This document shows, piece after piece, positions 1,935 through 15,516 of a stretch of DNA of 64,000 nt. This DNA is from an uncultured Chloroflexia bacterium (GTDB taxonomy: Bacteria > Chloroflexota > Limnocylindria > Limnocylindrales > CSP1-4), in contig CAVVYR010000008.1 of assembly GCA_963752475.1 (NCBI GenBank), forward strand, positions 448,001 through 512,000. Reading direction: 5' to 3'. Within the stretch, counting starts at the first letter, position 1; the number at the start of each line of letters is the position of its first letter. Position numbers and translations under genes: made by a program. Under the pieces are notes generated by a model. That model searched no databases. It worked only from the letters and a program-made list of their open reading frames with translations, and had not been told where the DNA came from.

Positions 1935-3484
1935 CGCAGCAGCCTCGCGGTCGCCTCGGAGACCTCGTCAGCCGCGCTCTCGACGATGGCCAGCACGTCC
2001 TCGACCGGTGCCTGCGTCAGGTCCAGCACCAGCGCCGGGAAGAGGCCCAGCGCCACCGCCAGCAGCACCAGTGGCGCCAGCGTGGCAGCTTCGATGCGGT
2101 CGACGTCGGTGAGCTTGTCACCGAGTGACTTCAGGAAGTCGGTGACGTCGCCCATGATGATGTTCTGGACCATGTACAGCAGATAGACGGCCGCGAAGAT
2201 GATGGTGAAGGCGGCCACGTAGCCGACCCACGGCTCCCAGGTGACGGCGCCGAGGATGACCAGGAACTCGCCCACGAAGCCGGCCAGGCCGGGCAGTCCG
2301 GCTGAGGCCAGGCTGAAGAAGACCATCAGGGTCGCGAACACCGGGACCCGCTGCCCCAGGCCGCCCATCTTGGCGATGGTGCGGTCGTGGGTGCGCTCGT
2401 AGATCACACCCACGAGCAGGAAGAGGGCGCCGGTGATCACACCATGGCCGACCATCTGGAAGATGGCGCCCTGCACGCCCTGCTCGTTGAGCACGAAGAT
2501 GCCCAGGGTCACGAAGCCCATGTGGCTGACCGAGGAGTAGGCGATGAGGCGCTTGAGGTCCGTCTGACGGATGGCCACGATGGCGCCGTAGAGCATGCCC
2601 ACGATCGAGAGCGCGATGATGAAGGGCGCCAGGTCCTGCGTGGCGTCGGGGAAGAGCGGCAGGTTCATGCGGATGAGCCCGTAGCCACCGAGCTTCAGCA
2701 GCACGCCGGCGAGGATGACCGAACCCGCGGTTGGGGCCTCGGTGTGAGCATCGGGCAGCCACGTGTGGACCGGCCACATCGGTACCTTGATGGCGAAGGC
2801 CAGGAAGAAGCCCAGGAAGGCCCAGAACTGGAGCGTGGGATCGAAGCCGGCCTCCACCAGCGTCACGTAGTCGAAGGCACCGGTCCAATCACCGCCGTTC
2901 TGGCCCTGATAGGTGAAGGCCAGCGCGAGGATGGCCACCAGCATCAGCAGCGAGCCGACGAGCGTGTAGATGACGAACTTGATGGTGGCGTAGATGCGGT
3001 TGGCGCCGCCCCAGATGCCGATGATCAGATACATCGGCACGAGCACCACTTCCCAGAAGACGTAGAAGAGGAAGGTGTCGAGCGCGAGGAAGACGCCGAG
3101 CATGCCCACCTCGAGCACGAGGAAGGAGATCATGTACTCCTTCACCCGCGTCTTGATGGGTCCGAACGAGGCCAGGATGCTGATCGAGGTCAGCAGCGTC
3201 GTGAGCAGGATGAGCACCAGGCTGATGCCGTCCACACCGACCTTGTACTGGATGCCGAAGAAGCCGATCCAGTCGACCGCCTGCACCAGCTGGAAGCCTT
3301 CGCGCTCGTTGTCGAAGCTCACCGCCACGAGCAGCGAAAGGGCGAGGGCCACGAGCGAGATAGCGAGAGCACCCCAGCGATGGAGATCCACGCGCTTGTT
3401 GGGCACGAAGAGCAGGATCAGGGCGCCCACCAGCGGCGTGAAGATCAGCAGGGTGAGCCAGTCGAGGCGGTCGAGGAACTCCAT
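1931..3484 (-). CDS. nuoM: NADH-quinone oxidoreductase subunit M
   Basis: Motifs FYVFWE, AIKVPMWPVHTWLPDAHTEAPT, DLKRLIAYSSVSHMG. Confidence 0.97.
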   Translation of the reverse strand: MEFLDRLDWLTLLIFTPLVGALILLFVPNKRVDLHRWGALAISLVALALSLLVAVSFDNEREGFQLVQAVDWIGFFGIQYKVGVDGISLVLILLTTLLTSISILASFGPIKTRVKEYMISFLVLEVGMLGVFLALDTFLFYVFWEVVLVPMYLIIGIWGGANRIYATIKFVIYTLVGSLLMLVAILALAFTYQGQNGGDWTGAFDYVTLVEAGFDPTLQFWAFLGFFLAFAIKVPMWPVHTWLPDAHTEAPTAGSVILAGVLLKLGGYGLIRMNLPLFPDATQDLAPFIIALSIVGMLYGAIVAIRQTDLKRLIAYSSVSHMGFVTLGIFVLNEQGVQGAIFQMVGHGVITGALFLLVGVIYERTHDRTIAKMGGLGQRVPVFATLMVFFSLASAGLPGLAGFVGEFLVILGAVTWEPWVGYVAAFTIIFAAVYLLYMVQNIIMGDVTDFLKSLGDKLTDVDRIEAATLAPLVLLAVALGLFPALVLDLTQAPVEDVLAIVESAADEVSEATARLLR

Positions 3485-5541
3485 CAGCGGGCCATCAGGA
3501 TGAAGAGCGTCGCGATGACGACGAGGCCGATGGCGATGCCAAGGGCGTAGTTCTGTACTCGGCCGGTCTGGATCTGCCGTACGTCGTCACCGATACGCTG
3601 GGTGACCGCGCCAACGCCGTTGACCACGCCGTCGATGACCTTCACGTCGAACCACATGACGCCGTTGGCCACGCGTCCACCGATGACGTAGAAGAGGAGG
3701 TGGTTGAGCTCGTCGAAGTACCACTTGTTGAGCGAGCCGGTGTAGAGGAAGCGGCTGACCCGGTTGCGCTCAGCCAGGCTCTCAACGGTCTCGAGGCGGG
3801 CGCGTGTGTTGAAGACGCCGAAGAGCCAGATGGCCGCGCCGATGCCAAGGGCGGCCATGGCCACCGAGATGATCAGCAGCGCGCCGTTCAGGCCGAAGAA
3901 CTCGTACTCCGGGAAGGAGATGCCGAGGATGGCCTCACCGGGGTGGAACACCGGTTCGAGCCACTTCTTGATGGGCGAGGTGCCAAGGAGCGGTCCACCC
4001 GGGTCGAAGGCGACCTTGCCGGCGTCGTTGACGAAGAGCCCGGTGCCGATGATGAGGCCGAGGAAGGTCGTAGGGATGGCCAGCAGCACGAGCGGCCCGA
4101 CCATCGAGGGCGGTGACTCGTGGACCTTGGGCTCGATCTCCGGATCGACCCGACTCTTGCCGTAGAAGGTCAGGCCCATGAGTCGGAACATATAGAAGCC
4201 GGTGAGGGCGGCCACGATGATGCCCACGATGAACACCGGCCACCAGCCAAGGACGAAGGCTTCGTCGAGGATGAGGTCCTTCGAGAAGAAGCCCGCGAAG
4301 AGCGGGATACCGGCGAGCGACAGGGAGCCGAGGAGGAACGTCGCGTGCGTCCACGGGATCCTGCGCCAGAGTCCGCCCATCTTGGTCATGTCCTGCTCTT
4401 CGTGCATCGCGTGGATGACCGAGCCGGAGCCGAGGAAGAGCAGGCCCTTGGTGAAGCCGTGGGCCATGAGGTGGAAGATCGCCGCCAGCCAGGCACCCAC
4501 GCCCAGGGCCATGAACATGTAGCCCAGCTGGCTGAGGGTGGAGTAGGCCAGAACGCGCTTGATGTCCTTCTGGGTCAGCGCGATGGTCGCGGCCAGGACC
4601 GCGGTGAAGGTGCCCAGGAGAGCCACCAGCAGCAGGGCCTCGGGCGCTGAGGCGAAGATGGGCGTGGTGCGGGCGATGAAGTAGACGCCGGCGTTGACCA
4701 TGGTGGCCGCATGGATGAGCGCGGAGACCGGCGTGGGGCCCTCCATCGCATCGGGCAGCCAGACATGGAAGGGGAACTGAGCGCTCTTGCCGGCCGCGCC
4801 GACGAAGAGGAGCACGGCCACGGTGTTGCGAACGAGCGGGTCGGCCGACGCGGTATTCCACGCCCCGAAGGACTCGAAGATGTCCATCGTGCCGGTGATG
4901 AGGAAGACGCCGATGATGCCGACGAGGAAGCCGTGGTCGGCGACGCGGTTGACAAGGAACGCCTTCTTCGAAGCCAGCGCCGGTGCGCGCTTCGTGTACC
5001 AGAAGCCGATCAGCAGGTAGGACGAGAGGCCCACCAGCTCCCACGCGCCGAAGACGACCAGGTAGCTGCTCGCGAGCACCAGCAGGAGCATCGAGAACAT
5101 GAACAGGTTGAGGTAGGCGAAGAAGCGCCACTTCGACGGGTCGTGCTCCATGTAGCCGATGCTGTAGATGTGCACCAGTGCGCCGATCCAGGTGACCACG
5201 ATGAGCATCAGCGCCGAGAGGTTGTCGAGCACGAACCCGAACTCGACCTGCAGATCGCCCACGCCGACCCAGGTGTAGAACATGTGCGCGATGCCGTGCT
5301 CGCCGTAGGCACCGGAGAGTTGCTGGAAGGCGAGGTACGTGGCCACCAGCGTCGCAGCCACGATGGCGCCCACCGAGATGACCCACGGCCGCGAGAGGCG
5401 CCGGCCGACGAGACCCGTGAGCAGGAAGCCGGCCAGCGGCAGGCCCAGCACGAGCAGGATGAGGAACGTCTCGAGCTCGCCTGCGGGCCCGGGCGGGATG
5501 AAGAGCTCGCCGCCCTCCTCCGCGTTGAAGATCAGGTCCAT
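3484..5541 (-). CDS. nuoL: NADH-quinone oxidoreductase subunit L
   Basis: Motifs GKSAQFPFHVWLPDAMEGPTPVSALIHAATMV, DIKRVLAYSTLSQLG, C-terminal QTGRVQNY. Confidence 0.97.
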   Translation of the reverse strand: MDLIFNAEEGGELFIPPGPAGELETFLILLVLGLPLAGFLLTGLVGRRLSRPWVISVGAIVAATLVATYLAFQQLSGAYGEHGIAHMFYTWVGVGDLQVEFGFVLDNLSALMLIVVTWIGALVHIYSIGYMEHDPSKWRFFAYLNLFMFSMLLLVLASSYLVVFGAWELVGLSSYLLIGFWYTKRAPALASKKAFLVNRVADHGFLVGIIGVFLITGTMDIFESFGAWNTASADPLVRNTVAVLLFVGAAGKSAQFPFHVWLPDAMEGPTPVSALIHAATMVNAGVYFIARTTPIFASAPEALLLVALLGTFTAVLAATIALTQKDIKRVLAYSTLSQLGYMFMALGVGAWLAAIFHLMAHGFTKGLLFLGSGSVIHAMHEEQDMTKMGGLWRRIPWTHATFLLGSLSLAGIPLFAGFFSKDLILDEAFVLGWWPVFIVGIIVAALTGFYMFRLMGLTFYGKSRVDPEIEPKVHESPPSMVGPLVLLAIPTTFLGLIIGTGLFVNDAGKVAFDPGGPLLGTSPIKKWLEPVFHPGEAILGISFPEYEFFGLNGALLIISVAMAALGIGAAIWLFGVFNTRARLETVESLAERNRVSRFLYTGSLNKWYFDELNHLLFYVIGGRVANGVMWFDVKVIDGVVNGVGAVTQRIGDDVRQIQTGRVQNYALGIAIGLVVIATLFILMAR

Positions 5542-5547
5542 CCCCGC

Positions 5548-5859
5548 CTACTCCTTCATCGACGCGTACTCGTCGACGAGCGGCGTCCTGCGGTTGCGGT
5601 AGATGGCGATGACGATGGCCAGGCCCACGGTGGCCTCGCCGGCGGCGACGGCGATGACGAACAGCGCGATGCTCGAGGCGTGGGCCGCGAAGTCGGGCGT
5701 GAAGGCGCCGAAGGCGATGATGGCCAGGTTGACCGAGTTGAGCATGATCTCGATGGACATGAGCATGGCGATGGCGTTGCGCTTGGCCAGGAAGCCGAAG
5801 GCGCCGATGCCGAAGAGCATGACCGCCAGGATGAGGTAGGCCTCGAGCGACTGGCTCAT
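5548..5859 (-). CDS. nuoK: NADH-quinone oxidoreductase subunit K
   Basis: 103 aa with three TM segments; MSIEIMLN and AAGEATVGLA motifs. Confidence 0.97.
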   Translation of the reverse strand: MSQSLEAYLILAVMLFGIGAFGFLAKRNAIAMLMSIEIMLNSVNLAIIAFGAFTPDFAAHASSIALFVIAVAAGEATVGLAIVIAIYRNRRTPLVDEYASMKE

Positions 5860-6437
5860 GCGCTCTCATCCTCATCGGGCACGGGCCTGCCGGGCTGGTT
5901 GGTCTGCGGCATGTCGTCGTCGCGCTTGGCCACGTAGAGCCCGCCGATCACGCCCGCGAGCAGGAGCACGCCCAGTGCCAGGAAGGCGAACATGTACTCC
6001 TCGTAGACCGTCAGCGCGATCTCGCGCGCCTCGGCCACCTGCACCGTGCTGGTCGCGTCCCACTCGGTGAGCATCACCGACGTGATCATCAGGAAGACGA
6101 GCACGATGGCGGCGAGGGCGCCGGCCCACCATTGGCGGTTGAAGACGAGCTTGGCCGGCCCGCGCTTGGAGTGCGTGATCATCACCGCGAAGAGGATGAG
6201 CACGGCCACGGCCCCGACATACGTGAGTACCTGGCTGATGGCCAGGAAGGCGCTGCCGAGCATGCCGTAGATGCCTGCGAGGGCGGCGAAGGACAGGATG
6301 AGCCAGAGCGCCGACCGGATGATGTCCCGGCCGAGCACGACGAGCAGCGCGGAGCCCAGTGTCACGCCGGCGAGCAGCAGGAAGACGAAGTCATCCCAGC
6401 GCCAGTCGAGATACGGGACCGTCCCCGGTAGCTCCAC
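5856..6437 (-). CDS. nuoJ: NADH-quinone oxidoreductase subunit J
   Basis: QVLTYVGAVAVLILFAVM motif; position in the operon. Confidence 0.95.
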   Translation of the reverse strand: MELPGTVPYLDWRWDDFVFLLLAGVTLGSALLVVLGRDIIRSALWLILSFAALAGIYGMLGSAFLAISQVLTYVGAVAVLILFAVMITHSKRGPAKLVFNRQWWAGALAAIVLVFLMITSVMLTEWDATSTVQVAEAREIALTVYEEYMFAFLALGVLLLAGVIGGLYVAKRDDDMPQTNQPGRPVPDEDESA

Positions 6438-6460
6438 TCCCTCTCCGAACCCCCTGTCGA

Positions 6461-9070
6461 CTACTTGTGGTGGATGGCGCTGCCACCGCCGGCACCGCCG
6501 GAGGCGTCCCTGGCGCCGTTGGTAGATCCATTCGTCCCGTTCACGCCGTCCCCGGCGAGGCCTTGCGGCAGCATGGGCAGCAGCCGCTCGTGCGGGATGT
6601 CGCGGCCGTCGGCCTGGGCTCGGCTGAGCCAGTCACGCTCGCGTCGGATGTAGCTGATCTCCGAGTCGAACTCCATCGCGGCCATGGCGATGAGGTCGAT
6701 CATCGGTTCTTCTCGCGACTCGTGCGCGAGCTCGAAGTCGGGACCGCAGCGGAGCGCGTCGTAAGGACATGCATCGACACAGATGCCGCACAGGATGCAG
6801 CGGGACTCATCCACCTCGTACTTCTCCAGCACGCGCGGCTTGGGCATGAGCGCGCCCGTCGGGCACGTCTCGGCGCAGCGGCCGCAGGAGACGCATGGCG
6901 TGGTGTTGAGGCTCATGTCCAGCGGCGTCGTCACGAGCGTGTCGAAGCCGGTGCGCATGAAGTCGTAGCAGGCTGCTCCCACGACCTCGCGGCAGACGTT
7001 GGCGCAACGGCCGCAGTCGATGCAGCGCGAGGGCTCGCGCAGGATGAAGGCGTGGCTGTCGTCGCGGATGTAGTCGTGGTTGAGGCCGGTGAAGCGGTTC
7101 TCGCTGACGCTGCGGAAGGAGAGGCCGGTGCGCTTGGGCTCGAGGGTCTGCAGGGTGGTGCCGTACTCGATGCCCTGGCGGCGCAGGTCACAGTACCCGA
7201 TGGCCTCGCAGGTGCACTGCAGGCAGCGGGCCGACTCGGACATGGCCTCTTCCGCCGTGTAGGGGATCTCGTACTCGATGTAGGAGTCGTTGCGCTCCTC
7301 GGGCGCCATCGACTTCAGCCGGATGCGCGGCTCCTTGACCTCGCCGGTGTAGGGCACGATCGACAGGAACTCCGGCTGCGGCTCGGCCAGGACCTGGCGC
7401 GTGCGGATCTCCTCGAGGTCCTGGCCCTGCAGGTAGGCGTCGATGGCGTAGCTCGCCCGGCGACCCTCAGCGATGGCCTCCACGACCGTGGCGGCGCCGG
7501 TGCGCACGTCGCCGGCACCGAAGACGCCCGCCCGCCCGGTGCCGAAGGTGACCGCGTCGGCGTCCAGCCGCCAGCGCTTGGTCTTCTCGATGCCCTCCGC
7601 GCCGGTCTCGAGCCAGTCCAGCTGGGGGCCCTGGCCGATGGCCAACAGCACGCGATCGCAGTCGATGATGAACTCGGTGCCCTCGACCGGCTGCGGGCGT
7701 CGGCGGCCAGAGGCGTCCGGCTCGCCCAGCGCCATGCGCTGGAACTCCACGCCGGTGACCTTGTCGTTCTCGTCGGTCACCACCCGGGTGGGCGAGGCTT
7801 GGAAGATCGCGCGCGCACCCTCCTCCAGCATCTCGTGGACCTCGTCCGCGGCGGGCATGTCCTTCATGTCGCGGCGGTAGACGAGGGTGGTCTCGGTGCA
7901 GCCCTGGCGGACCGAGGTGCGCGAGCAGTCCATGGAGGTGAAGCCGCCGCCGATGACCACGACGCGCTTGCCCTTGTGGTCGGGATAGGGCAGGCCCAGC
8001 GTGGCCACGCGCAGGTACTCCAGGCCGTCGATGACGCCGTCGGCGTCCTCGCCGGGGATACCCAGCTTGTTCGTGTCGTAGCAGCCGATGGCTACGAGCA
8101 CCGCGTCGTAGCCCTGGTTCTGCAGGTCGTCGATGGTGAAGTCCTCGCCCAGGGCCACGCCCGTGACGAGCTTGGCGCCGAGGTCCCACACCGCCTGGTA
8201 CTCGGCTGCCAGGATGCGCTCCTTGGGCAGGCGGTACTCGGGGATGCCGTAGCGCAGCATGCCGCCCGCATCGGGATCGCGTTCGTAGACCGTGACCTCG
8301 TGGCCGCTGAGTGAGAGGTAGTAGGCCGCGGACATGCCCGAAGGGCCGGAGCCGATGACGGCCACGCGCTTGCCGGTGGCGGGCTGCTGGTCGAAGGGCA
8401 GAGGTGCCTTGGCGCCGTCAGCCTGGGCCTTGAGCACCTGGTCGCCGGCGTAGCGGTGGCTGTCGCGGATGGCGATGGCCTCTTCCACCTCGTCGCGGCG
8501 GCAGTGGTCCTCGCATGGAGCCGGACAGACACGCCCGAGCACCGAGGGGAATGGGATCGTGCGCTTGAAGACGCGCGCCGACTCGACGAAGTCGCCCTCG
8601 GTGTTGGCCTTCAGGAAGCCCGGGATGTCGATGTGGCTGGGGCACTTGTTCTGGCACGGCGGCAGGCAGTAGGCGTTGTGGTCGCTGAAGATGAGCTCAA
8701 GGTTCGTCTTGCGGATCTCGCGCAGCCTCGGGGTCTGGGTCTGCACGACCATGCCCTCCTCGGCCTCACGCGAGCAGGAGATCGGCGGCGTGTCCTCGCC
8801 CTCGACCTCGACCACGCACATGCGGCAGGCTCCGAAGCCGGGCAGCTTGGGCTCGTAGCAGAGCGTGGGCACCTCGATGCCGGCATCGCGGCAGACGTCG
8901 AGGATGGTCTGGCCCTCGCGGGCCTGCAACGTGCGGCCGTCGATCTCGAGCTCGAAGGCAGCAGAGGATTGCCTTCGCTGCGGCGACTGGGTCGTGAGCA
9001 GGCGCTCAGCGGCCTCGTCGGGCGACGGGTCGGACGGCTGGTGGATGATCTCGGGGAGCGTGTCGGTCAT
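6461..9070 (-). CDS. Multidomain Fe-S flavoprotein: NuoG/HydA-type N-terminal [2Fe-2S] + GltD/NfnB/SfrB-like FAD/NAD(P)H domain + 2x[4Fe-4S] + C-terminal half of NuoI
   Basis: PTLCY..GACRMC..SC; PPCQNKCP and GRVCPAPCEDHC; VIGSGPSG; GGMLRYGIPEYRLP; VIGGGFTSMD..VYRR; RCIDCGRCANVC; CVSCGRCAETCP; then RCILCGICVDACPYDAL..DFELA. ATG at 9070 overlaps the upstream stop (ATGA). Confidence 0.88.
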   Translation of the reverse strand: MTDTLPEIIHQPSDPSPDEAAERLLTTQSPQRRQSSAAFELEIDGRTLQAREGQTILDVCRDAGIEVPTLCYEPKLPGFGACRMCVVEVEGEDTPPISCSREAEEGMVVQTQTPRLREIRKTNLELIFSDHNAYCLPPCQNKCPSHIDIPGFLKANTEGDFVESARVFKRTIPFPSVLGRVCPAPCEDHCRRDEVEEAIAIRDSHRYAGDQVLKAQADGAKAPLPFDQQPATGKRVAVIGSGPSGMSAAYYLSLSGHEVTVYERDPDAGGMLRYGIPEYRLPKERILAAEYQAVWDLGAKLVTGVALGEDFTIDDLQNQGYDAVLVAIGCYDTNKLGIPGEDADGVIDGLEYLRVATLGLPYPDHKGKRVVVIGGGFTSMDCSRTSVRQGCTETTLVYRRDMKDMPAADEVHEMLEEGARAIFQASPTRVVTDENDKVTGVEFQRMALGEPDASGRRRPQPVEGTEFIIDCDRVLLAIGQGPQLDWLETGAEGIEKTKRWRLDADAVTFGTGRAGVFGAGDVRTGAATVVEAIAEGRRASYAIDAYLQGQDLEEIRTRQVLAEPQPEFLSIVPYTGEVKEPRIRLKSMAPEERNDSYIEYEIPYTAEEAMSESARCLQCTCEAIGYCDLRRQGIEYGTTLQTLEPKRTGLSFRSVSENRFTGLNHDYIRDDSHAFILREPSRCIDCGRCANVCREVVGAACYDFMRTGFDTLVTTPLDMSLNTTPCVSCGRCAETCPTGALMPKPRVLEKYEVDESRCILCGICVDACPYDALRCGPDFELAHESREEPMIDLIAMAAMEFDSEISYIRRERDWLSRAQADGRDIPHERLLPMLPQGLAGDGVNGTNGSTNGARDASGGAGGGSAIHHK

Positions 9071-10389
9071 GAAGCCACGGCACCAACTGTGCGGGAGGGT
9101 TGGCAGACACCGGCGGGACATTCACCGCGCTCGGCGTGGGCATCTAGTTCAGGCGCGAAGTATCGCATCACCGACAGCAGTGGGTTGCCGGCGTCGGCTT
9201 CGAGCCCGGAGAGGGCCGCGGCACGCATGTCGGCCGCGAGCGCGCGCATCAGCTCCTGGTCGCTGGGCCGAGTGTGGCCGCTGCAGAGGGCCGCGCCCAG
9301 TTCCGCGAGGCGGCGGATGCCGATGCGATCGGGGATGGTCTTGCCGCTGGCGTTGTCGCTCAGGAAGCGAGTCATGAGTGTGGCCAGGTCGACGAGACAG
9401 ACCTTGTCATCGAGGGCCATGAGCGTGCTCGAGCCGCCCAGTGCGCCAGCCTCGCGCAGGGCCTCGTAGCGCAGCGGGGTGTGGAGCGCGCCCGGCGGCA
9501 GGAAGCCGCCGGTGGGACCGCCCACGAGCACGGCCTTGAGGTTGCCCTTGGTACCGCCGCCGGGGCCGTCCACGATCTCCTTCAGCGTGGCGCCGAAGGG
9601 GACCTCGGCGATACCCGGCCGCTTCACGGAGCCACCCAGCTGCAGCAGCGTGGTTCCCGGGCTTTCCGCGTCAACCAGCGAGCTGAAGGCGCCGGCGCCG
9701 TTGGCCACGATCCAGGGCACGGCCGCGAGGGTCTTGACGTTGTTGATGACGGTGGGCTTGCCCCACAGGCCCTTGCGCGACGGGAACGGCGGCCGCTGAT
9801 CGGGCTGCGCGCGCTGGCCCTCCAACGCTCGCAGCAGCACGGTCTCCTCGCCGACCATGAAGCTGCCCGTCAGCTCGCGCACCTCGACCTCGAGGCTGGG
9901 CCCGTCGGCAGAGCGGCCGATGTAGCCGGCTGCAACGGCCTCGTCGATGGCCGCGTCGAGGCGCTCGGCCGCGACGGGTGCCGACGATGAGACGGCGATG
10001 GTGGCCTGCTCGGCACCGACGGCCCAGGCTGCGATGGCCACGCCCTCGACGACGAGGTGCGGGTCCCGCTCCATGAGCACGCGGTCAAGCTGGGCACCCG
10101 GGTCGGCCTCGAAGCCGTTGGCCACGACGTAACGCACCGGGTCGGGCTGCGAGACGCAGTCGCGCCACTTGGCGCCTGTCGGATATCCGGCTCCGCCCAG
10201 GCCGCGCAGGCCGGATTCGGTGATGGTGTGGACGACGGCCTCGGGCGAGAGCTGCTCCGTCGCGCGCTTCCAGGCACTCCAGGCTCCGCCGGCCTCGGCC
10301 ATGGCCAGGTCCTCGACCTCTCCGTCGGCGGCTCGCGCGGTCAGTACCTGCGGCCAGTCCTTGGCTCCCTGCAGGATGGGCAGGCTCAT
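9067..10389 (-). CDS. nuoF: NuoF/HydB-like flavoprotein subunit with degenerate [4Fe-4S] N3 motif
   Basis: SGLRGLGGAGYPTGAKW, GEETVLL, PTVINNVKTL, VGGPTGG; the ESCGKCxPCR-type motif reads NASGKTIPDR. Confidence 0.88.
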   Translation of the reverse strand: MSLPILQGAKDWPQVLTARAADGEVEDLAMAEAGGAWSAWKRATEQLSPEAVVHTITESGLRGLGGAGYPTGAKWRDCVSQPDPVRYVVANGFEADPGAQLDRVLMERDPHLVVEGVAIAAWAVGAEQATIAVSSSAPVAAERLDAAIDEAVAAGYIGRSADGPSLEVEVRELTGSFMVGEETVLLRALEGQRAQPDQRPPFPSRKGLWGKPTVINNVKTLAAVPWIVANGAGAFSSLVDAESPGTTLLQLGGSVKRPGIAEVPFGATLKEIVDGPGGGTKGNLKAVLVGGPTGGFLPPGALHTPLRYEALREAGALGGSSTLMALDDKVCLVDLATLMTRFLSDNASGKTIPDRIGIRRLAELGAALCSGHTRPSDQELMRALAADMRAAALSGLEADAGNPLLSVMRYFAPELDAHAERGECPAGVCQPSRTVGAVAS

Positions 10390-11225
10390 GCCGCCTCCCC
10401 CTGGGGCACGTTGGCGCGCAGGGCCGCGGCGATCGTGGCCGCGTCATCCGGGCTCGACTTGGGCAGCGGTTCGCCGTCGACCTCCACGTAGGCGCTGTCC
10501 TGGGATGCGCCGCCGCACGAGGTGGTGGCGAGGCGCACGGCACCGTCGGGGCTCACGCCACCGATATCGGTGGCGAGGTGCTCGCGGAAGGCCGCCAGTA
10601 CGCGGCCGCCGCCCAGCAGCGTGCAGTTCGTGCAGCGGCAGACGCGGACCACATGGCCCACGGGCTGCTCGAAGTGGAGGTGCGGGTACGACGTGGCCAT
10701 GCCGTACAGCGAGGCGTAGTCGGCGCCGGTCTGGTGGGCGATGTGCTGCAGCGCGGCCACCGGCAGGTGGCCGTAGGCGCCCTGCACCTGCTCGAGCATC
10801 GGCAGCGCGTTGCTCGGCTTGTAGGCACCGGCGCTGAGGATCTCGTCGACGGGGCCCAGGTCGATGGTCTCGAAGGGGTCGAAGGTGCGATCGGGGACCG
10901 GCCGGCCGGAGCGGCGCAGGGCCGACTCCTCACGGCGCTCGGCGTACTGCTCGGAGGCGCCCCAGTGCACGTGGTACCGGTCGCGCGTGTCCACGCCACC
11001 CATATCGATGCACTCGATGGGACAGGCCTGCGCGCACTGGAAGCAGGTCTCGCACTTGAGCGTGCCGGCCTCGTCGTAGACCAGGATCAGCCGACCGCGG
11101 TGCTTCGGGCTGATGGGGTTCTGCTCTTCGGGGTAGCGCACCGTCAGGTTGGGGCGGAAGACCTGCTTGATGGAGAAGGCCATGCCCTTGATGATGGCCA
11201 GGCCGGGGATGCGGTCGGTCCTCAC
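10386..11225 (-). CDS. Fusion of NuoI N-terminal half (one CxxCxxCxxxCP motif) and NuoE-like thioredoxin-fold domain
   Basis: GTG start overlaps the nuoH stop (GTGA); TVRYPEE..KHRGRL..KCETCFQCAQACP is NuoI-N; LEQVQGAYGHLP..YGMATSY..VCRCTNC..SCGG is NuoE-like. Confidence 0.85.
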   Translation of the reverse strand: MRTDRIPGLAIIKGMAFSIKQVFRPNLTVRYPEEQNPISPKHRGRLILVYDEAGTLKCETCFQCAQACPIECIDMGGVDTRDRYHVHWGASEQYAERREESALRRSGRPVPDRTFDPFETIDLGPVDEILSAGAYKPSNALPMLEQVQGAYGHLPVAALQHIAHQTGADYASLYGMATSYPHLHFEQPVGHVVRVCRCTNCTLLGGGRVLAAFREHLATDIGGVSPDGAVRLATTSCGGASQDSAYVEVDGEPLPKSSPDDAATIAAALRANVPQGEAA

Positions 11226-12619
11226 GACAGGTACTCCTTGACCACGATGATGGCGCCGGCGGTGACCATCAGGTTCAGCAGTGCGGCCGGCATCAGCCAC
11301 TTCCAGGCGAAGTTCATCATCTGGTCGATGCGCACGCGGGGGTAGGTGGCGCGCATGAGCACGAACAGCGCGACCAGCGCGAAGGACTTGCCGAAGAAGA
11401 CGAGGATGCCGAGCAGAGCCTCGAAGCTGAAGAGCGCCCAGGTGGTGATGCCGCCCATGACGATGAGGTTGGCCAGGACGAAGCCGACGACGAGCGACTT
11501 GATCGCGCCCCAGTCGGACTTGAGCATCCAGATGAGGCCGCCCAGCGCCAGCCACAGCACGGCCGGGATAAGGAGCGGGACGGCCAGCAGCCACGGACCG
11601 AGCTGACCCGGATCGACGTCGCTGAGCACGACCGGCGTGGCGACCCCGAAGAACTCGAGGATGGGGTCGATATGGATGCCGTGGTGGTAGCCGCCCAGGA
11701 AGAGCGTGACCGTCAGGGCCGAGAGGATGAAGACGTTGACGTACTCGGCGAAGAAGAAGAAGCCGAAGCGCATGCCGCTGTATTCGGTGGCGAAGCCGGC
11801 CACGAGCTCGGAGTCGGCCTCCGTGTAGTCGAAGGGTGTGCGGCCCGCTTCAGCGGTGGCGGCGATGAAGAAGATGATCAGCGCGAGGGGCTGCTGGAAG
11901 GCGTACCAGTTGACGAACCAGCCGCCCTGGTTCTCGACGATGGTGCCAAGGTTGAGCGTGCCCGCGAGCAGGACCACGCCGAAGGCGCCAAGGATGAGCG
12001 GCAGCTCGTAGCTGACGACCGCGGCTGCGGCTCGGATACCGCCGAGCAGCGAGTACTTGTTGTAGCTCGAGAGGCCGGCCATCATCAGGCCGACCACGCC
12101 GATGCCCGAAGCGGCGAAGAAGTAGAGCAGCCCCAGCTCCATGTAGTAGCCGGCCATGCCCGGCGCGAAGGGGATGACCATCAGCGTCATGACCGACGCG
12201 AGGAAGGTCACCGCTGGTGCGAGCGTGAAGACCGGCACGTCCACGCCGCGCGGGGTGTAGTCCTCCTTCGAGAGCACCTTGAGGCCGGCCATCAGCGAGG
12301 CCAGCGCGCCCCACGGGCCAGTGCGGTCGGGACCGACGCGCAAGTTCATCTGCGCGATGATCTTGAGCTCCATGTAGATGATCACGAAGGCCGCCGGCAC
12401 CGTGAAGAGCAGGACGCCGGTGGCCGCAGCGAAGAAGCGCAGGATCTCGATGTTGGCCTCGCCGGCGTCGACGATCCACTCCACGGCTGAGGGGCCGAGG
12501 CCGGTGACCCAGAGCAGGAAGAAGCCGATCGCGCCTGCCAGCACCAGGGCCAGCAGGGCAAGGACGATCTTGCCCAAGGTGGTCACGCCCGCGGGTGCCG
12601 GGCTGGCGGTGGCGCTCAC
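11222..12619 (-). CDS. nuoH: NADH-quinone oxidoreductase subunit H (extended, 465 aa)
   Basis: RVGPDRTGPWG, KVLSKED, NKYSLLGGIR, RTPFDYTEADSELVAGFATEYSG, PRVRIDQMM. Confidence 0.95.
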   Translation of the reverse strand: MSATASPAPAGVTTLGKIVLALLALVLAGAIGFFLLWVTGLGPSAVEWIVDAGEANIEILRFFAAATGVLLFTVPAAFVIIYMELKIIAQMNLRVGPDRTGPWGALASLMAGLKVLSKEDYTPRGVDVPVFTLAPAVTFLASVMTLMVIPFAPGMAGYYMELGLLYFFAASGIGVVGLMMAGLSSYNKYSLLGGIRAAAAVVSYELPLILGAFGVVLLAGTLNLGTIVENQGGWFVNWYAFQQPLALIIFFIAATAEAGRTPFDYTEADSELVAGFATEYSGMRFGFFFFAEYVNVFILSALTVTLFLGGYHHGIHIDPILEFFGVATPVVLSDVDPGQLGPWLLAVPLLIPAVLWLALGGLIWMLKSDWGAIKSLVVGFVLANLIVMGGITTWALFSFEALLGILVFFGKSFALVALFVLMRATYPRVRIDQMMNFAWKWLMPAALLNLMVTAGAIIVVKEYLS

Positions 12620-13839
12620 TTGTCGATCCCGCCCATGATCGGGTCAAGGCTGGCCATGATGGCCATGATGTCGGCGAGAACGTGACCCTTGGAGAGCGGG
12701 CCCACGGCCTGCAGGTTGAAGAACGAGGGATCGTGGATGCGGAAGCGGAACGGCTGGTCGGAGCCGTCGCTGACCGCGTAGGCGGCATATTGGCCGCGGG
12801 GTGACTCGAGCGCTGCGAAAGCACGGTTCGGCGGGATGCGCAGCAGGCGCGGCAGCTTGGCCATCACCGGCCCGTCGGGCATCTCGTGGAGCACCTGGTC
12901 GATGATGCGGATCGACTGCTTGATCTCGTCGATGTGCAGCAGGTAGCGCGCATAGGAGTCGCCATCGTTGCGCGTGGGGATATCGAACTCGAGCTCGGGA
13001 TAGACGCTGTACGGATGCGCGCGGCGGACGTCGTAGGGCACGCCCGAGGCTCGCAGGGGCGGGCCGGTCATGTTGTAGCGCAGGGCCATCTCGCGGTCGA
13101 CCACGCCGAGCCCCTTCGTGCGGTTCACGAAGATCTCGTTCTCGTTCATGAGCGTGGCCTGATCGTCGATGCGTGCGGCAGCGTGCCCCATCCAGTCGCC
13201 GAGGCGGCTGAGGAACTCGTGGTTGAGATCGCCGTTGACACCACCGATGCGCATGTAGTTGAAGAGCAGCTTCTGGCCGGTCAGCGCCGCCAGCATCTCC
13301 ACGATCTCGTCGCGCTCGGCGAAGCCGTAGAGGATGGGCGTGAGGCCGCCCAGGTCCAGCGCCAGCCAGCCGATGAAGGTGGCGTGGCTGCTGATGCGGT
13401 TGAGCTCCCAGGCGAGCACGCGGATGTACTCGGCGCGCCGCGGCACCTCGAGATCGAGCAGGCGCTCGGCGGACAGCACCGGCAGCGACTCACTGAACAT
13501 CGAAGCGATGTACTCGAGCGGGTCGGTGTTGCTGATGGCGTGGTGCCAGTCACCGTGCTCGCAGATCTTCTCCACGCCGCGGTGGAGGTAGCCCAGCACC
13601 GGGTCGATGTCGACGATCCTCTCGCCGTCGATCTTCATGACCACGCGCAACACGCCGTGGGTGGAGGGGTGCTGAGGGCCCAGGTTCAGGAACATCTCGC
13701 CGTCGTCGAGCTGGTAGAACTCGGCCTCGCGCTCGGTACGCGGGGTCAGCGGCGGGATGGCGTCGTAGATGGTGCCCGGCGTCTGGACCATGATCTCGGG
13801 ATCGTCGAGGCTGCGCATCTGCTCGCGGTCGGTGGTCAT
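12616..13839 (-). CDS. nuoD: NADH-quinone oxidoreductase subunit D
   Basis: NLGPQHPSTHGVLR, GYLHRGVEK, ELNRISSH, ESPRG. Confidence 0.96.
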   Translation of the reverse strand: MTTDREQMRSLDDPEIMVQTPGTIYDAIPPLTPRTEREAEFYQLDDGEMFLNLGPQHPSTHGVLRVVMKIDGERIVDIDPVLGYLHRGVEKICEHGDWHHAISNTDPLEYIASMFSESLPVLSAERLLDLEVPRRAEYIRVLAWELNRISSHATFIGWLALDLGGLTPILYGFAERDEIVEMLAALTGQKLLFNYMRIGGVNGDLNHEFLSRLGDWMGHAAARIDDQATLMNENEIFVNRTKGLGVVDREMALRYNMTGPPLRASGVPYDVRRAHPYSVYPELEFDIPTRNDGDSYARYLLHIDEIKQSIRIIDQVLHEMPDGPVMAKLPRLLRIPPNRAFAALESPRGQYAAYAVSDGSDQPFRFRIHDPSFFNLQAVGPLSKGHVLADIMAIMASLDPIMGGIDK

Positions 13840-14468
13840 GCCGGCTCCTCGCCGCTCTCGACCGCATCGGTCTCGTCGGCCGAGCCTGCGGCCACGGCCA
13901 GCAGCTTGCCATCCGCGCCCAGCCGCGCGCCGGCACCTGCGCTGGTCCGGATCACGGGGTTCTCGCGGTTCTCGGCCGGGGCCACGGGCGTCTCGATGTG
14001 GCGGATGCCCTCGCCCGGAGCACGCGAGGCGTCGTCAGGCATGGCGAAGTCCTTGCGCAGGGGGAAGGCCAGGTAGTCGGGCGGCATGTAGATCCGGCGC
14101 AGGTCGCGGTTGCCCTCGAACTCGATGCCGAACATGTCATAGGCCTCGCGCTCGCCCCACTCGGCACCAGGCCAGAGCTGGGTGACCGAGGGCAGGCGCG
14201 GATCTTCACGCGAGAGGCCGTCGGCGATGACCCGGACCCAGTCCTCCGAGAGCGGGCTCCAGAGGTGGTACACGACCTGCATGGTCACGCCGGTGTCGAC
14301 GCCGCAGATGTCGGCCATCAGCTCGAAACGCAGATCGCCGTCCTCGCGCAGCGTGCGCATGACGGCCGTGAGGTCCGCGGGACGGACGACCAGCTCGATG
14401 GTGTCGCCCATGACCTCCGCAGGCACGACGGTCCGATCAGCGAGGCGATCGTCGATGAGGGCGAGCAT
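13836..14468 (-). CDS. nuoC: NADH-quinone oxidoreductase subunit C
   Basis: EREAYDMFGIEFEG..DLRRI..FPLRKDF; start uncertain (ATG 14468, in-frame ACG 14480). Confidence 0.93.
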   Translation of the reverse strand: MLALIDDRLADRTVVPAEVMGDTIELVVRPADLTAVMRTLREDGDLRFELMADICGVDTGVTMQVVYHLWSPLSEDWVRVIADGLSREDPRLPSVTQLWPGAEWGEREAYDMFGIEFEGNRDLRRIYMPPDYLAFPLRKDFAMPDDASRAPGEGIRHIETPVAPAENRENPVIRTSAGAGARLGADGKLLAVAAGSADETDAVESGEEPA

Positions 14469-14491
14469 GCGCGTATCCGTGGCGGGCCTCC

Positions 14492-15166
14492 CTAGACGCC
14501 TTCCGGCACGGTGGGGCCGACCTTGCGGTCCTTCCACTGACCGCGGCGTTCGAGCACGAGTTGCTGCAGCTTGAGCATCCCGTAGATGAGGCCCTCCGGC
14601 CGCGGGGGGCAGCCGGGGACGTAGACGTCGACGGGCATGATGCGATCGATGCCCTCGACGGTGGAGTAGGAACGCTTGTAGCGGCCGCCCGAACAGGTGC
14701 AGTCACCCATGGCCACGCACCACTTGGGCTCGGGCATCTGCTCCCACAGGCGGATGAGCGGGTCGGCCATCTTGGTCGTGAGCGTGCCGGCCACGATGAG
14801 CACGTCCGCCTGCCGTGGCGAGGCACGGAAGGGGAACATGTTGAAGCGGTCCATGTCGTTGACCGGGGTGGCCGAGGACATCATCTCCATGGCGCAGCAG
14901 GCCAGGCCGGAAAGGAGCGGCCAGAGGCTGTTCGCGCGGAGGTAGTCGAACAGCAGGTCCGCGGTCGTGGGCACCACGTCGAGTGCGCCCCAGCGGCCGT
15001 TGTCGCCCTTCTCGCCGAACTCCAGTTCCTTGAGGTGATCGACGTGGGCGGCCTGCCCGCCGCTGTAGGCCTCTGGGTCGGCTGGCTTCCAGGTCGTGTT
15101 GGGCAGGACGATCGCACCGCGCTTGTCAGCGGTCGTGGCCTCCTTGCCGGTCTTCTTCACTTCCAC
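14492..15166 (-). CDS. nuoB: NADH-quinone oxidoreductase subunit B
   Basis: GLACCAMEM, RASPRQAD, MGDCTCSGG, VDVYVPGCPPRPE. Confidence 0.97.
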   Translation of the reverse strand: MEVKKTGKEATTADKRGAIVLPNTTWKPADPEAYSGGQAAHVDHLKELEFGEKGDNGRWGALDVVPTTADLLFDYLRANSLWPLLSGLACCAMEMMSSATPVNDMDRFNMFPFRASPRQADVLIVAGTLTTKMADPLIRLWEQMPEPKWCVAMGDCTCSGGRYKRSYSTVEGIDRIMPVDVYVPGCPPRPEGLIYGMLKLQQLVLERRGQWKDRKVGPTVPEGV

Positions 15167-15516
15167 GTCAGCAGGCCCTTCCTGGCGGCATACAGCACCG
15201 AGATCTCCATGATGCCGATGAACAGGAGCATGCCCATGAAGCCGCCGGTCAGCACGTCATCGAAAACGAGCGCCCACAGCGCGATGAAGAGGACTTCGAC
15301 GTCGAAGGCCACGAACAGCAGGGCGTAGAGGTAGAACGAGAGACCGAAGCGACCGCGGGTGTCGCCATAGGTGTCGATGCCCGACTCGTAGGGCAGACCC
15401 TTGTGCTCATCGCCCTTGTGCCGGTGCGAGATGAACCAGGCCAGTCCGATCGTCAGGAAGACGAAACTGAACCCCGCGATCACGAAGCCGAGCACGTACC
15501 AGAGCGGAGCGGTCAA
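15157..15516 (-). CDS. nuoA: NADH-quinone oxidoreductase subunit A
   Basis: PYESG, FVAFDVEVLF, KGLLTW; TTG start after an AGAGGA RBS. Confidence 0.96.
   Translation of the reverse strand: MTAPLWYVLGFVIAGFSFVFLTIGLAWFISHRHKGDEHKGLPYESGIDTYGDTRGRFGLSFYLYALLFVAFDVEVLFIALWALVFDDVLTGGFMGMLLFIGIMEISVLYAARKGLLTWK

What the first reader, a model, noticed from the sequence alone, without database searches (positions are those of the whole stretch)
6461..11225. Complex I with nuoI split in two by an inserted three-gene electron-input cassette
Seen: there is no stand-alone nuoI between nuoH and nuoJ. The gene after nuoH starts like NuoI (KGMAFSIKQVF..TVRYPEE..HRGRL..KCETCFQCAQACPIECI, about 11000-11225) but has only one ferredoxin motif and then becomes a NuoE-like domain. 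The gene before nuoJ ends with the missing NuoI half (KYEVDESRCILCGICVDACPYDAL..DFELAHESRE, about 6700-6840). The three genes and nuoH are translationally coupled (GTGA/ATGA overlaps). Established: in 2x[4Fe-4S] ferredoxin folds such as NuoI, each cluster takes three Cys from one motif and the fourth from the other. Inference: an E/F/G-like cassette was inserted into nuoI, and N6a/N6b are now co-ligated by two polypeptides, fixing the new input module onto the Q-module. I do not know of a described complex I with this architecture.
Basis: partly seen in the sequence, partly recalled or inferred. Interest (0 to 1): 0.95.

Follow-up and report, generated by a model that had tools for sequence, protein, structure and literature searches.

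The report
Complex I with a split NuoI
This uncultured Chloroflexota bacterium encodes a proton-pumping respiratory complex I whose small iron-sulfur subunit NuoI is made as two halves, each fused to one end of a three-protein NAD(P)H-oxidising module borrowed from soluble transhydrogenases, a conserved wiring I did not find described in print.

Summary
On the minus strand lies a 13-gene operon nuoA-B-C-D-H-X1-X2-X3-J-K-L-M-N (405-15516). X1 (279 aa) is the N-half of NuoI (one CxxCxxCxxxCP motif) plus a NuoE-like domain. X2 (440 aa) is NuoF-like. X3 (869 aa) is a NuoG-type [2Fe-2S] domain, a GltD/NfnB-type FAD/NAD(P)H domain, a HydA-type two-cluster domain and the C-half of NuoI. NuoI profiles give complementary half-hits. 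No intact nuoI and no second nuoD were found in this genome (88.8% complete) or in five relatives (91-98% complete).

The cassette is most like StnABC/NfnABC (Bfu-type) transhydrogenases. The layout is shared by all Limnocylindria families sampled and by a second, high-GC lineage (one record is named Thermoleophilia) that keeps a complete Bfu-type module.

In this species all four ligands of the NuoF N3 cluster are gone and the NuoE [2Fe-2S] site is degenerate, while every X3 cysteine motif is invariant. The most likely electron entry is therefore NAD(P)H at the X3 flavin. Co-ligation of N6a/N6b by the two polypeptides is inferred; one complex prediction gave weak support.

Ten literature searches found no description; the nearest is the predicted "Nuo-Bfu". 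This scan has noted the same architecture in other genomes.

The parts
15157..15516 (-). nuoA
   Evidence: PF00507, E 1e-26
14492..15166 (-). nuoB (N2 subunit; CC tandem, CxxC.., GCPP seen in the sequence)
   Evidence: PF01058, E 8e-28; sequence
13836..14468 (-). nuoC
   Evidence: PF00329, E 1.7e-38
12616..13839 (-). nuoD, complex I type (no NiFe cysteine motifs seen); the only NuoD in the genome
   Evidence: PF00346, E 1.2e-84; sequence
11222..12619 (-). nuoH (465 aa, with an insertion relative to the Pfam profile)
   Evidence: PF00146, E 1.6e-96
10386..11225 (-). X1, 279 aa: NuoI N-half fused to a NuoE-like domain; GTG start in a GTGA overlap with nuoH
10980..11198 (-). X1 residues 10-82: NuoI N-terminal half, with the single motif C58-x2-C61-x2-C64-x3-C68-P69 (11019-11054)
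   Evidence: NF004536 positions 12-84 of 180, E 4.9e-16; the Cys and Pro are invariant in 20 of 20 sequences
10419..10847 (-). X1 residues 127-269: NuoE-like domain. The helical part is conserved; the [2Fe-2S] ligands are degenerate (3 of 4 canonical Cys here)
   Evidence: PF01257, E 2.6e-23; best solved match StnA 8oh5_A; alignment
9067..10389 (-). X2, 440 aa: NuoF/HydB-like core (FMN domain, SLBB, N3 domain), without the extra N- and C-terminal cluster domains of bifurcating BfuB
   Evidence: PF01512 E 2.9e-40, PF10589 E 1.6e-10; best solved match 9bov_B E 1.8e-103
9190..9366 (-). X2 residues 342-400: remnant of the N3 [4Fe-4S] site. All four Cys are replaced (S, T, D, S)
   Evidence: alignment to 9bov_B; family alignment; 10 same-genus loci cover this site and all 10 keep 3 Cys (an eleventh locus ends short of it)
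6461..9070 (-). X3, 869 aa: NuoG-N/GltD/HydA-ferredoxin/NuoI-C fusion
   Evidence: NF009454 E 3e-165
8732..8959 (-). X3 residues 38-113: NuoG/HydA-type [2Fe-2S] domain (C71, C82, C85, C99 invariant)
   Evidence: PF13510, E 9e-21
7421..8668 (-). X3 residues 135-550: GltD/NfnB-like domain with two [4Fe-4S] sites, a FAD fold (GSGPSG) and an NAD(P)H fold (GGGFT..YRR). H205 is invariant where StnC has K170
   Evidence: PF14691, PF07992; TIGR01318 E 1.6e-94
7190..7225 (-). X3 C616-x2-C619-x-C621-x5-C627 motif, as in StnC and NfnA
   Evidence: alignment to 9bov_A and 9n5u_A; invariant
6848..7045 (-). X3 residues 676-741: HydA/NuoG-type two-cluster ferredoxin domain. Motif M1 is C683/686/689/693; motif M2 is C726/729/732/736-P
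   Evidence: PF22117; 7p5h_A E 4e-20; all Cys invariant in 34 of 34 sequences
6695..6835 (-). X3 residues 746-792: NuoI C-terminal half. Motif M3 is C758/761/764/768-P, followed by GPDFELAHESRE
   Evidence: TIGR01971 positions 71-117; TYKY/NuoI chains E 1e-13; Cys invariant in 34 of 34
6464..6694 (-). X3 residues 793-869: variable tail, Gly/Asn-rich at its end
   Evidence: alignment
5856..6437 (-). nuoJ
   Evidence: PF00499
5548..5859 (-). nuoK
   Evidence: PF00420
3484..5541 (-). nuoL
   Evidence: PF00361, PF00662
1931..3484 (-). nuoM
   Evidence: PF00361
405..1934 (-). nuoN
   Evidence: PF00361

Best explanation
This is the cell's only complex I: a proton-pumping NAD(P)H:quinone oxidoreductase. 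Its usual NADH module (NuoEFG) is replaced by a module derived from a soluble Stn/NfnABC (Bfu-type) transhydrogenase.

The module is tied to the quinone module because NuoI is made in two pieces. The N-half, with one four-cysteine motif, is the start of X1. The C-half, with the other motif, is the end of X3. The two halves are inferred to fold together into the usual two-cluster ferredoxin core (N6a/N6b), so each cluster takes cysteines from both polypeptides and the complex can only be completed with the module in place.

In this species electrons most likely enter as a hydride from NAD(P)H to the FAD of the GltD-like domain of X3; the motifs favour NADPH. From there they run through the X3 iron-sulfur clusters to N6a/N6b, then to N2 in NuoB and on to quinone. 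The NuoE-like domain of X1 and the NuoF-like X2 have lost their cluster ligands here and probably act mainly as a scaffold holding X1 to X3.

Shown: gene order, domain content, the complementary NuoI halves, conservation, and the ligand losses. Inferred: co-folding of the halves, the electron path, the nucleotide specificity and the scaffold role.
For: 1. Complementary NuoI half-hits. No intact NuoI and a single NuoD in the genome. None of 5 class relatives at 91-98% completeness has a NuoI match over the cut-off, and each has the two halves.

2. Parity. X1 carries one CxxCxxCxxxCP motif and X3 carries three. From established ferredoxin chemistry (recalled), such a motif gives three Cys to one cluster and the fourth to its neighbour. 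With an odd number in each chain, one two-cluster unit must be built across X1 and X3. All 16 cysteines are invariant.

3. M1 and M2 of X3 align with the two-cluster domain of HydA, StnC and NfnA. That leaves M3, which carries the NuoI-type flank GPDFELAHESRE, for X1.

4. Complex prediction of X3 655-845 with X1 1-118 and four [4Fe-4S]: weak support, score 0.39 against a best control of 0.00 (3 controls). The mark was reached by 58 of 80 solved complexes and 2 of 110 mismatched pairs, but at 0.60 or under by only 7 of those 80 and by both mismatches that passed. The runs agree in at least 64% of their contacts and the partner's pLDDT is at least 48. A pass for halves of a known fold may come from likeness to solved complex I.

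5. The cassette is Stn/Nfn-like. X3 matches 9bov_A at E 2e-166, 9n5u_A at 1e-146 and StnC 8oh5_C at 5e-145. X2 matches 9bov_B at 2e-103. X1 matches StnA at 2e-16. In StnC a chain FAD-C7-C6-C5-C4-C3 carries NADPH electrons (PMC10482914, passages read).

6. Constraint. X3 is 73-78% identical within the family and 48-60% across the class, while X2 is 39-53%. The NuoE thioredoxin part is truncated in 4 of 5 other family-f1 genera and in family f4. N3 cysteines number 4 of 4 in two lineages, 3 of 4 in most, and 0 of 4 only here.

7. Selection. The operon is kept in 16 of 16 streamlined genomes of 1.0-1.4 Mb. Synteny holds in 8 of 8 loci from families f1-f3. Contigs from RNA libraries, belonging to relatives, cover the genes, which is only a hint of expression.
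Against: No structure supports the co-folding. Both AlphaFold2 models were of low confidence and the complex prediction gave no contacts.

M2 and M3 of X3 together also align to both motifs of whole NuoI chains: X3 725-784 pairs with Nqo9 52-124, and X3 725-789 with E. coli NuoI 59-130. X3 homologs in other families hit TIGR01971 positions 40-111. A different pairing is therefore possible.

X2 keeps the GGAGYPTG loop and the GEET motif. Same-genus relatives keep 3 N3 cysteines, and G401 and family f4 keep all 4. X2 may therefore be redox-active in other species, and the scaffold role may not generalise.

The preference for NADPH over NADH rests only on the conserved YRR motif shared with NADPH-binding StnC and NfnA, and the role of that motif is recalled.

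The genome is 88.8% complete with 5.8% contamination. It holds three other NuoF-like genes elsewhere.
Confidence: 0.6

Rival explanations
1. Alternative pairing. Motifs M2 and M3 of X3 form a complete NuoI-like two-cluster domain within X3, and the X1 motif pairs with M1 of X3. Clusters are still shared between the two proteins, but N6a/N6b themselves are not split.
For: X3 725-790 aligns to both motifs of Nqo9, E. coli NuoI and MBH subunit N. X3 homologs hit the NuoI profile at positions 40-111. Pfam Fer4_7 spans 726-772. The 21-residue spacing between M2 and M3 is typical of small ferredoxins (recalled).
Against: M1, M2 and the 32-residue stretch between them align as one unit to the HydA/StnC/NfnA two-cluster domain, and that stretch is highly conserved. 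The X1 N-half carries the NuoI-specific N-terminal region directly before its motif.
Confidence: 0.2
2. Two-flavin enzyme. X2 still binds FMN and oxidises NADH, so the complex takes both NADH and NADPH, or works as a membrane-coupled transhydrogenase or bifurcating enzyme.
For: The second lineage has a complete Bfu-type X2 of about 640 aa, with an N-terminal [2Fe-2S] domain, N3 and a C-terminal two-cluster domain, plus an intact NuoE. G401 and family f4 keep 4 of 4 N3 cysteines. A confurcating 'Nuo-Bfu' has been proposed (PMC9304861, passages read).
Against: In this species the N3 ligands are 0 of 4, the NuoE ligands are incomplete and the extra BfuB cluster domains are absent. No cluster therefore lies between the X2 flavin site and the chain.
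Confidence: 0.13
3. The physiological direction is reversed: proton-motive force drives quinol to NADP+ reduction, to make NADPH.
For: Complex I is reversible (established). A GltD-type site that binds NADP(H) is present.
Against: This is the only complex I found in the genome and is kept in streamlined genomes, which points to a central catabolic role. Nothing here tests direction.
Confidence: 0.05
4. Artefact or decaying operon: a misassembly or a pseudogenised nuoI.
For: The source is a metagenome-assembled genome at 88.8% completeness. A few relatives show frameshifted copies (G015, G022; G062 X3).
Against: The same layout is found in 41 of 41 relatives, in four families of the class and in 7 of 7 long metagenome loci of a second lineage. 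All frames are open with coupled starts. Contigs from independent runs bridge the junctions.
Confidence: 0.01

Closest known systems
Canonical complex I subunit NuoI (Nqo9, TYKY/NDUFS8) within NuoA-N
   Same: The same NuoI sequence family for both halves. The same Q- and P-module genes (A, B, C, D, H, J-N), with NuoD of the complex I type.
   Different: NuoI is on two polypeptides, each fused to an input-module protein. There is no NuoE, NuoF or NuoG of the canonical kind, and the input genes sit at the nuoI position between nuoH and nuoJ.
StnABC / NfnABC (Nfn-Bfu) soluble electron-bifurcating transhydrogenases (PDB 8oh5, 9bov, 9n5u; PMC10482914, PMC12018979)
   Same: The best solved matches for X1-E, X2 and X3. 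X3 shares the [2Fe-2S] + GltD + CxxCxC..C + two-cluster layout of StnC and NfnA.
   Different: X3 lacks the FdhF-like C-terminal half and ends in the NuoI C-half. X2 lacks the N- and C-terminal cluster domains and N3. X1-E lacks a full [2Fe-2S] site. An invariant His205 stands where StnC has K170, and Ile where it has C114. The context is membrane-bound.
Predicted 'Nuo-Bfu' and 'Mbh-Bfu' complexes (Schut et al. 2022, PMC9304861; passages read, figures and supplements not seen)
   Same: A complex I-like or Mbh-like proton pump with Bfu-type genes in the middle of the operon as its input module.
   Different: Nuo-Bfu is described as 14 subunits A-N in Deferribacteres, Proteobacteria, Planctomycetes and Nitrospirae. 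The passages I read mention no GltD domain and no split NuoI.
Mbx-like operons in which the NuoI homolog is replaced by a gltD-related flavoprotein (Degli Esposti 2015, PMC4758237; passages read)
   Same: A GltD-type NAD(P)-binding flavoprotein joined to a complex I-like Q-module at the NuoI position.
   Different: There NuoI is said to be substituted. Here both NuoI halves are retained, and NuoE/F-like proteins are present.

Membership tests
Respiratory complex I (NDH-1, Nuo) | Membrane subunits NuoA, H, J, K, L, M, N | tested here: met
   All seven match their Pfam families above the cut-off
Respiratory complex I (NDH-1, Nuo) | Q-module NuoB/C/D, with NuoD lacking NiFe ligands | tested here: met
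   PF01058, PF00329, PF00346. NuoD shows QHPSTHG and a C-terminal DPIMGGIDK with no CxxC pairs (sequence; the motif meaning is recalled)
Respiratory complex I (NDH-1, Nuo) | NuoI as one polypeptide with two CxxCxxCxxxCP motifs | tested here: not met
   Two half-hits on X1 and X3. No match over the TIGR01971 cut-off in the genome
Respiratory complex I (NDH-1, Nuo) | N-module NuoF with FMN and the N3 cluster | tested here: not met
   X2 scores 327 bits against a 559-bit cut-off for nuoF_fam. N3 cysteines are 0 of 4
Stn / NfnABC (Bfu family) | BfuB with extra clusters: an N-terminal [2Fe-2S] and a C-terminal two-[4Fe-4S] domain (PMC9304861, passages) | tested here: not met
   X2 has no such Pfam hits. 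The second-lineage homolog has them
Stn / NfnABC (Bfu family) | BfuC/StnA [2Fe-2S] with four Cys | tested here: not met
   X1 has CRCTNC..SCGGAS, which is 3 of the 4 canonical positions. The site is not conserved in the class
Stn / NfnABC (Bfu family) | BfuA with a GltD-like FAD/NADPH domain inserted in a NuoG-like protein | tested here: met
   X3 residues 41-767 align to 9bov_A 6-698, E 2e-166
Stn / NfnABC (Bfu family) | [quoted passage not shown] | tested here: not met
   StnC K170 aligns with X3 H205. H205 is invariant in 10 of 10 sequences
Stn / NfnABC (Bfu family) | Electron bifurcation among NADH, NADPH and ferredoxin | not testable with these tools
   Needs enzyme assays
Nuo-Bfu (predicted) | 14 subunits A-N, with BfuABC in place of NuoEFG | tested here: not met
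   13 genes. There is no separate NuoI, and the cassette lies between nuoH and nuoJ

The most novel reading that the evidence does not exclude
A widespread, undescribed lineage of respiratory complex I, found in Chloroflexota and probably Thermoleophilia, is fed by a Bfu-type transhydrogenase module hard-wired into the pump through a NuoI whose two clusters are shared between two polypeptides. In its reduced Limnocylindria form it would be an NADPH-specific proton-pumping complex I. In its complete form it could couple NADH, NADPH, ferredoxin and quinone at one proton pump.
Probability: 0.3. Interest if true: 0.9.

Novelty: new variant of a known kind. Interest (0 to 1): 0.8.

Why it matters
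Complex I is among the best-studied enzymes of bioenergetics, and its 14 core subunits are treated as fixed units. Three points follow from this finding.

1. A core iron-sulfur subunit is split, with its two clusters apparently ligated across two chains. This shows how a new electron-input module can be made obligatory for assembly.

2. The input module is derived from a soluble bifurcating transhydrogenase and carries a GltD-type flavin. That would give abundant soil and freshwater bacteria a pump fed by NADPH, or by several carriers in the complete form. It would change how their energy and redox budgets are read from genomes.

3. Standard annotation calls these genes 'NuoE' and 'glutamate synthase small subunit' (names seen). 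Genome surveys would therefore score these organisms as lacking NuoI, or as having an incomplete complex I.

Tried and rejected
- AlphaFold2 of full-length X3 (10-row alignment) gave mean pLDDT 54, and under 40 across residues 561-812. AlphaFold2 of X3 640-830 (34 rows) gave mean pLDDT 38.9. Both are too poor to judge which motifs pair, so no fold search was run on them.
- Complex prediction returned no contacts, so it cannot tell the two pairings apart.
The sources of P0203, P0222 and P0230 therefore stay unknown.
- P0251 and P0182 (701 and 574 aa) looked like longer fusions but are frameshifted translations of high-GC DNA and were dropped.
- A search of 401 Chloroflexota genomes with P0210 found no close relative; the best full-length matches were 34-35% identical, in Limnocylindria. 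The second lineage is therefore not placed in that phylum. Its Thermoleophilia label rests on 1 named record among the 120 listed.
- In the read-laying, bins with little or no cover in the RNA runs are not interpreted. All runs laid were contigs, so expression is not shown.
- Literature: ten searches and passages of PMC4758237, PMC5736913, PMC12361115, PMC13399641, PMC3144371 and PMC12221290 gave no description of a split NuoI. Supplements and figures were not visible; the clade tables of PMC9304861 could contain these genes.
- The idea that the loss of all N3 cysteines is general was rejected: it is specific to this species.

Full report
**What is there.**
The minus strand of window 405-15516 carries thirteen tightly packed genes. 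Ten of them match the Pfam families of NuoA, B, C, D, H, J, K, L, M and N above the cut-off. Three genes lie between nuoH and nuoJ:
- X1, 10386-11225, 279 aa
- X2, 9067-10389, 440 aa
- X3, 6461-9070, 869 aa

X1 starts at a GTG that overlaps the nuoH stop (GTGA), 8 nt after an AAGGAG. X1/X2 and X2/X3 overlap as ATGA.

**The split.**
X1 residues 10-82 match the N-terminal half of NuoI models (NF004536 positions 12-84 of 180, E 4.9e-16; TIGR01971 positions 1-66 of 121). X1 residues 127-269 match NuoE/HoxE/FdsG-type thioredoxin-like ferredoxins. X3 residues 746-792 match TIGR01971 positions 71-117.

Against solved chains the halves are complementary. In mycobacterial NuoI (8e9g_I), X1 covers residues 7-77 and X3 covers 84-129. 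In plant TYKY (7ar7_I), X1 covers 23-92 and X3 covers 99-144. The cut falls in the loop between the two cysteine motifs.

The genome (38 contigs, 88.8% complete, 5.8% contamination) has no NuoI match over the curated cut-off, and the two best of 16 matches are these halves. It has a single NuoD locus. Three other NuoF-like genes lie elsewhere.

**What the cassette is.**
The best solved relatives of X3 are 9bov_A (E 2e-166, residues 41-767 against 6-698), NfnA 9n5u_A (1e-146) and StnC 8oh5_C (5e-145). For X2 they are 9bov_B (2e-103), HydB and NfnB. For the NuoE-like part of X1 the best is StnA 8oh5_A.

X3 therefore has the StnC/NfnA layout: a [2Fe-2S] domain, an inserted GltD/NfnB-like FAD/NAD(P)H domain with two [4Fe-4S] sites, a CxxCxC..C motif and a HydA-type two-cluster domain. 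It lacks the FdhF-like C-terminal half, and the NuoI C-half stands in that place.

In StnC, NADPH electrons run FAD-C7-C6-C5-C4-C3 to StnB, and a side branch (C2, C1) is called a non-functional remnant (PMC10482914, passages read). I infer that in X3 the clusters of the two-cluster domain lead on to N6a/N6b.

X3 differs from solved Stn and Nfn proteins at the non-cysteine ligand position of the flavin-proximal cluster. StnC K170 and C114 align with X3 H205 and I149, and H205 is invariant in 10 of 10 sequences.

**Degeneration of the E/F-like parts.**
Aligned to 9bov_B, the four cysteines of the NuoF N3 cluster read S, T, D, S in X2.

Across ten homologs from four families, G401 and family f4 keep 4 of 4, and the others keep 3 of 4 with the second replaced by T, S or A. 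Eleven same-genus loci were examined; ten cover this site and all ten keep 3 of 4, and the eleventh ends short of it. The total loss is therefore specific to this species.

X2 also lacks the N-terminal [2Fe-2S] and C-terminal two-cluster domains of bifurcating BfuB proteins.

The canonical Cx4C..Cx3C site of the NuoE-like domain is incomplete here (3 of 4) and absent in families f2 and f3. The whole thioredoxin part is missing in 4 of 5 other f1 genera and in f4, where X1 is 186-239 aa. The helical N-domain is kept.

By contrast every X3 cysteine motif, the FAD and NAD(P)H glycine motifs and the YRR motif are invariant. X3 is 73-78% identical within the family, against 46-53% for X2.

**Distribution.**
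The X1 fusion is present in 41 of 41 genomes of the genus and of a sister family. Of the 40 relatives, 37 show one full-length match and 3 show pieces or a partial match. The 16 genomes of the sister family are only 1.0-1.4 Mb.

In a sample of 401 genomes of the phylum, strong matches (E 1e-42 or better) occur in 23 of 23 f1, 4 of 4 f2 and 16 of 16 f3 genomes. Among the 150 best listed matches, none outside the class covers both the NuoI half and the thioredoxin part of NuoE (426 further matches were not listed).

Gene order nuoA,B,(C),D,H-X1-X2-X3-J,K,L,M,N holds in 8 of 8 loci from f1, f2 and f3. In f4 (G354) nuoB-nuoD-X1-X2-X3 sit between unrelated genes and nuoH lies on another contig. Five class genomes at 91-98% completeness have no NuoI over the cut-off but do have both halves.

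Record titles name Candidatus Limnocylindrales or Limnocylindria for 19 of the 80 best loci. Most of the rest carry generic Chloroflexota labels, and 2 carry Acidobacteriota labels on short contigs.

**Other Chloroflexota families.**
In families f9, f28 and f46, 5 of 5 genomes have an intact NuoI over the cut-off next to a canonical NuoD. They also have a nuoB-X1-X2-X3 cluster and a second NuoD of the type seen in the window. The split-NuoI system is thus a separate line of complex I-like enzymes. It coexists with the canonical one in some families and is the only one found in Limnocylindria.

**A second lineage.**
The all-against-all search returned distant X1-like proteins (27-34% identity) with an intact NuoE domain. 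One is P0210, whose NuoE part scores 152 bits against a 141-bit cut-off.

Relatives of P0210 are found on 110 metagenome stretches, of which the best 80 were kept. I examined 7 of those 80, chosen as long loci, and all 7 show nuoA,B,D,H-X1-X2-X3-J,K,L,M(N) at 65-70% G+C.

There X2 is about 640 aa, with an N-terminal [2Fe-2S] domain, a strong N3 domain and a C-terminal two-cluster domain. X3 again ends in the NuoI C-half (TIGR01971 positions 69-114).

One of the 120 listed relatives carries an NCBI name, Thermoleophilia bacterium. No close relative was found in 401 Chloroflexota genomes. The complete Bfu-type module therefore looks like the older state and the Limnocylindria module a reduced one. 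This order is an inference; I built no tree.

**Do the halves really share clusters?**
The evidence is indirect.

1. Homology assigns X1 and the X3 tail to opposite halves of one fold.
2. X1 has one ferredoxin motif and X3 has three. Such a motif gives three cysteines to one cluster and the fourth to the neighbouring one (established for this fold; recalled). So one two-cluster unit has to be built across the two chains, whichever motifs pair.
3. M1 and M2 of X3 align as a unit with the two-cluster domain of HydA, StnC and NfnA. That leaves M3 for X1.
4. The complex prediction gave weak support. The score was 0.39 against a best of three controls at 0.00. The mark was reached by 58 of 80 solved complexes and 2 of 110 mismatches, but at 0.60 or under by only 7 of the 80 and by both mismatches that passed. 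The runs agree in at least 64% of contacts and the partner's pLDDT is at least 48. Such a pass may reflect likeness to solved complex I.

Against this, M2 and M3 together also align to whole NuoI cores, and both AlphaFold2 models were unusable.

**Not an artefact.**
Besides the conservation above, contigs of a DNA run from another study bridge nuoJ/X3 (6300-6634, 7 differences) and X2/X3 (8979-9180, 2 differences). Contigs of the best-holding run, which may be the source sample, span 8855-10414. Contigs in two RNA libraries, belonging to relatives, cover parts of X1-X3 and bridge X1/X2 and nuoH/X1. This is only a hint of transcription.

**Literature.**
Ten full-text searches found no description of a split NuoI or of this operon.

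The nearest ideas in print are two. Schut et al. 2022 predict the 'Nuo-Bfu' and 'Mbh-Bfu' complexes (PMC9304861, passages read). Degli Esposti 2015 remarks that mbx-like operons replace NuoI by a gltD-like flavoprotein (PMC4758237, passages read). Figures and supplements could not be seen.

**Earlier notes of this scan.**
The scan's own earlier notes report the same architecture in at least 14 other genomes. They agree with this reading but are not independent evidence.

**Verdict.**
This is a new variant of complex I. It is conserved across a whole class and present in a second lineage, with a plausible but untested mechanism.

Noticed in passing
G000:C8:226734-226952, C23:23703-23921, C24:28367-28585 (own genome, outside the window): Three places give identical scores to a ferredoxin-type stretch inside a 685-aa open frame. 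This is either a gene present in three identical copies or an assembly duplication.
   Followed up: no
L195:10864-15177: In one locus of the second lineage, X2 and X3 lie in the same frame with no stop between them. This is a possible X2-X3 fusion protein of about 1,450 aa. In the six other loci they are separate.
   Followed up: partly
L030 (G354), L113 (G106), L114 (G058), L115 (G350): In family f4 and in other Chloroflexota families the split-NuoI cassette sits with nuoB (and nuoD in f4), away from the membrane-subunit genes. Those other families also have a canonical complex I with an intact NuoI. Whether this cluster docks on a membrane arm encoded elsewhere, or is soluble, is open.
   Followed up: partly
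window 11222-12619 (nuoH): NuoH is 465 aa. About 90 residues (roughly 312-401) have no counterpart in family f3 homologs, and the Pfam match spans 386 residues for a 298-position profile. This is an insertion in the subunit that contacts NuoI.
   Followed up: no
window 10848-10979 (X1 residues 83-126): The linker between the NuoI half and the NuoE-like domain is itself strongly conserved (YHVHWG..E.YAERREESALRRSGRPVPD, many positions at 90% or more in 20 sequences). It has no family match, so it may be a new interface element.
   Followed up: no
G000:C6:204212-204616, with the same place in G005, G009 and G002: A second NuoE-like gene, next to a NuoF-like gene at C6:205099, shows one in-frame TGA inside the match in four genomes of the genus. 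This could be a gene boundary, selenocysteine or a frameshift.
   Followed up: no
L027 (G062) 9025-11302; G015:C4 and G022:C6: A few relatives have the X3 or X1 match broken over two or three frames. These are sequencing errors or real pseudogenes.
   Followed up: no
window 6464-6694 (X3 tail): The last 75 or so residues of X3 form a variable tail that is Gly/Asn/His-rich at its end. It is present in f1 and absent in f3.
   Followed up: no
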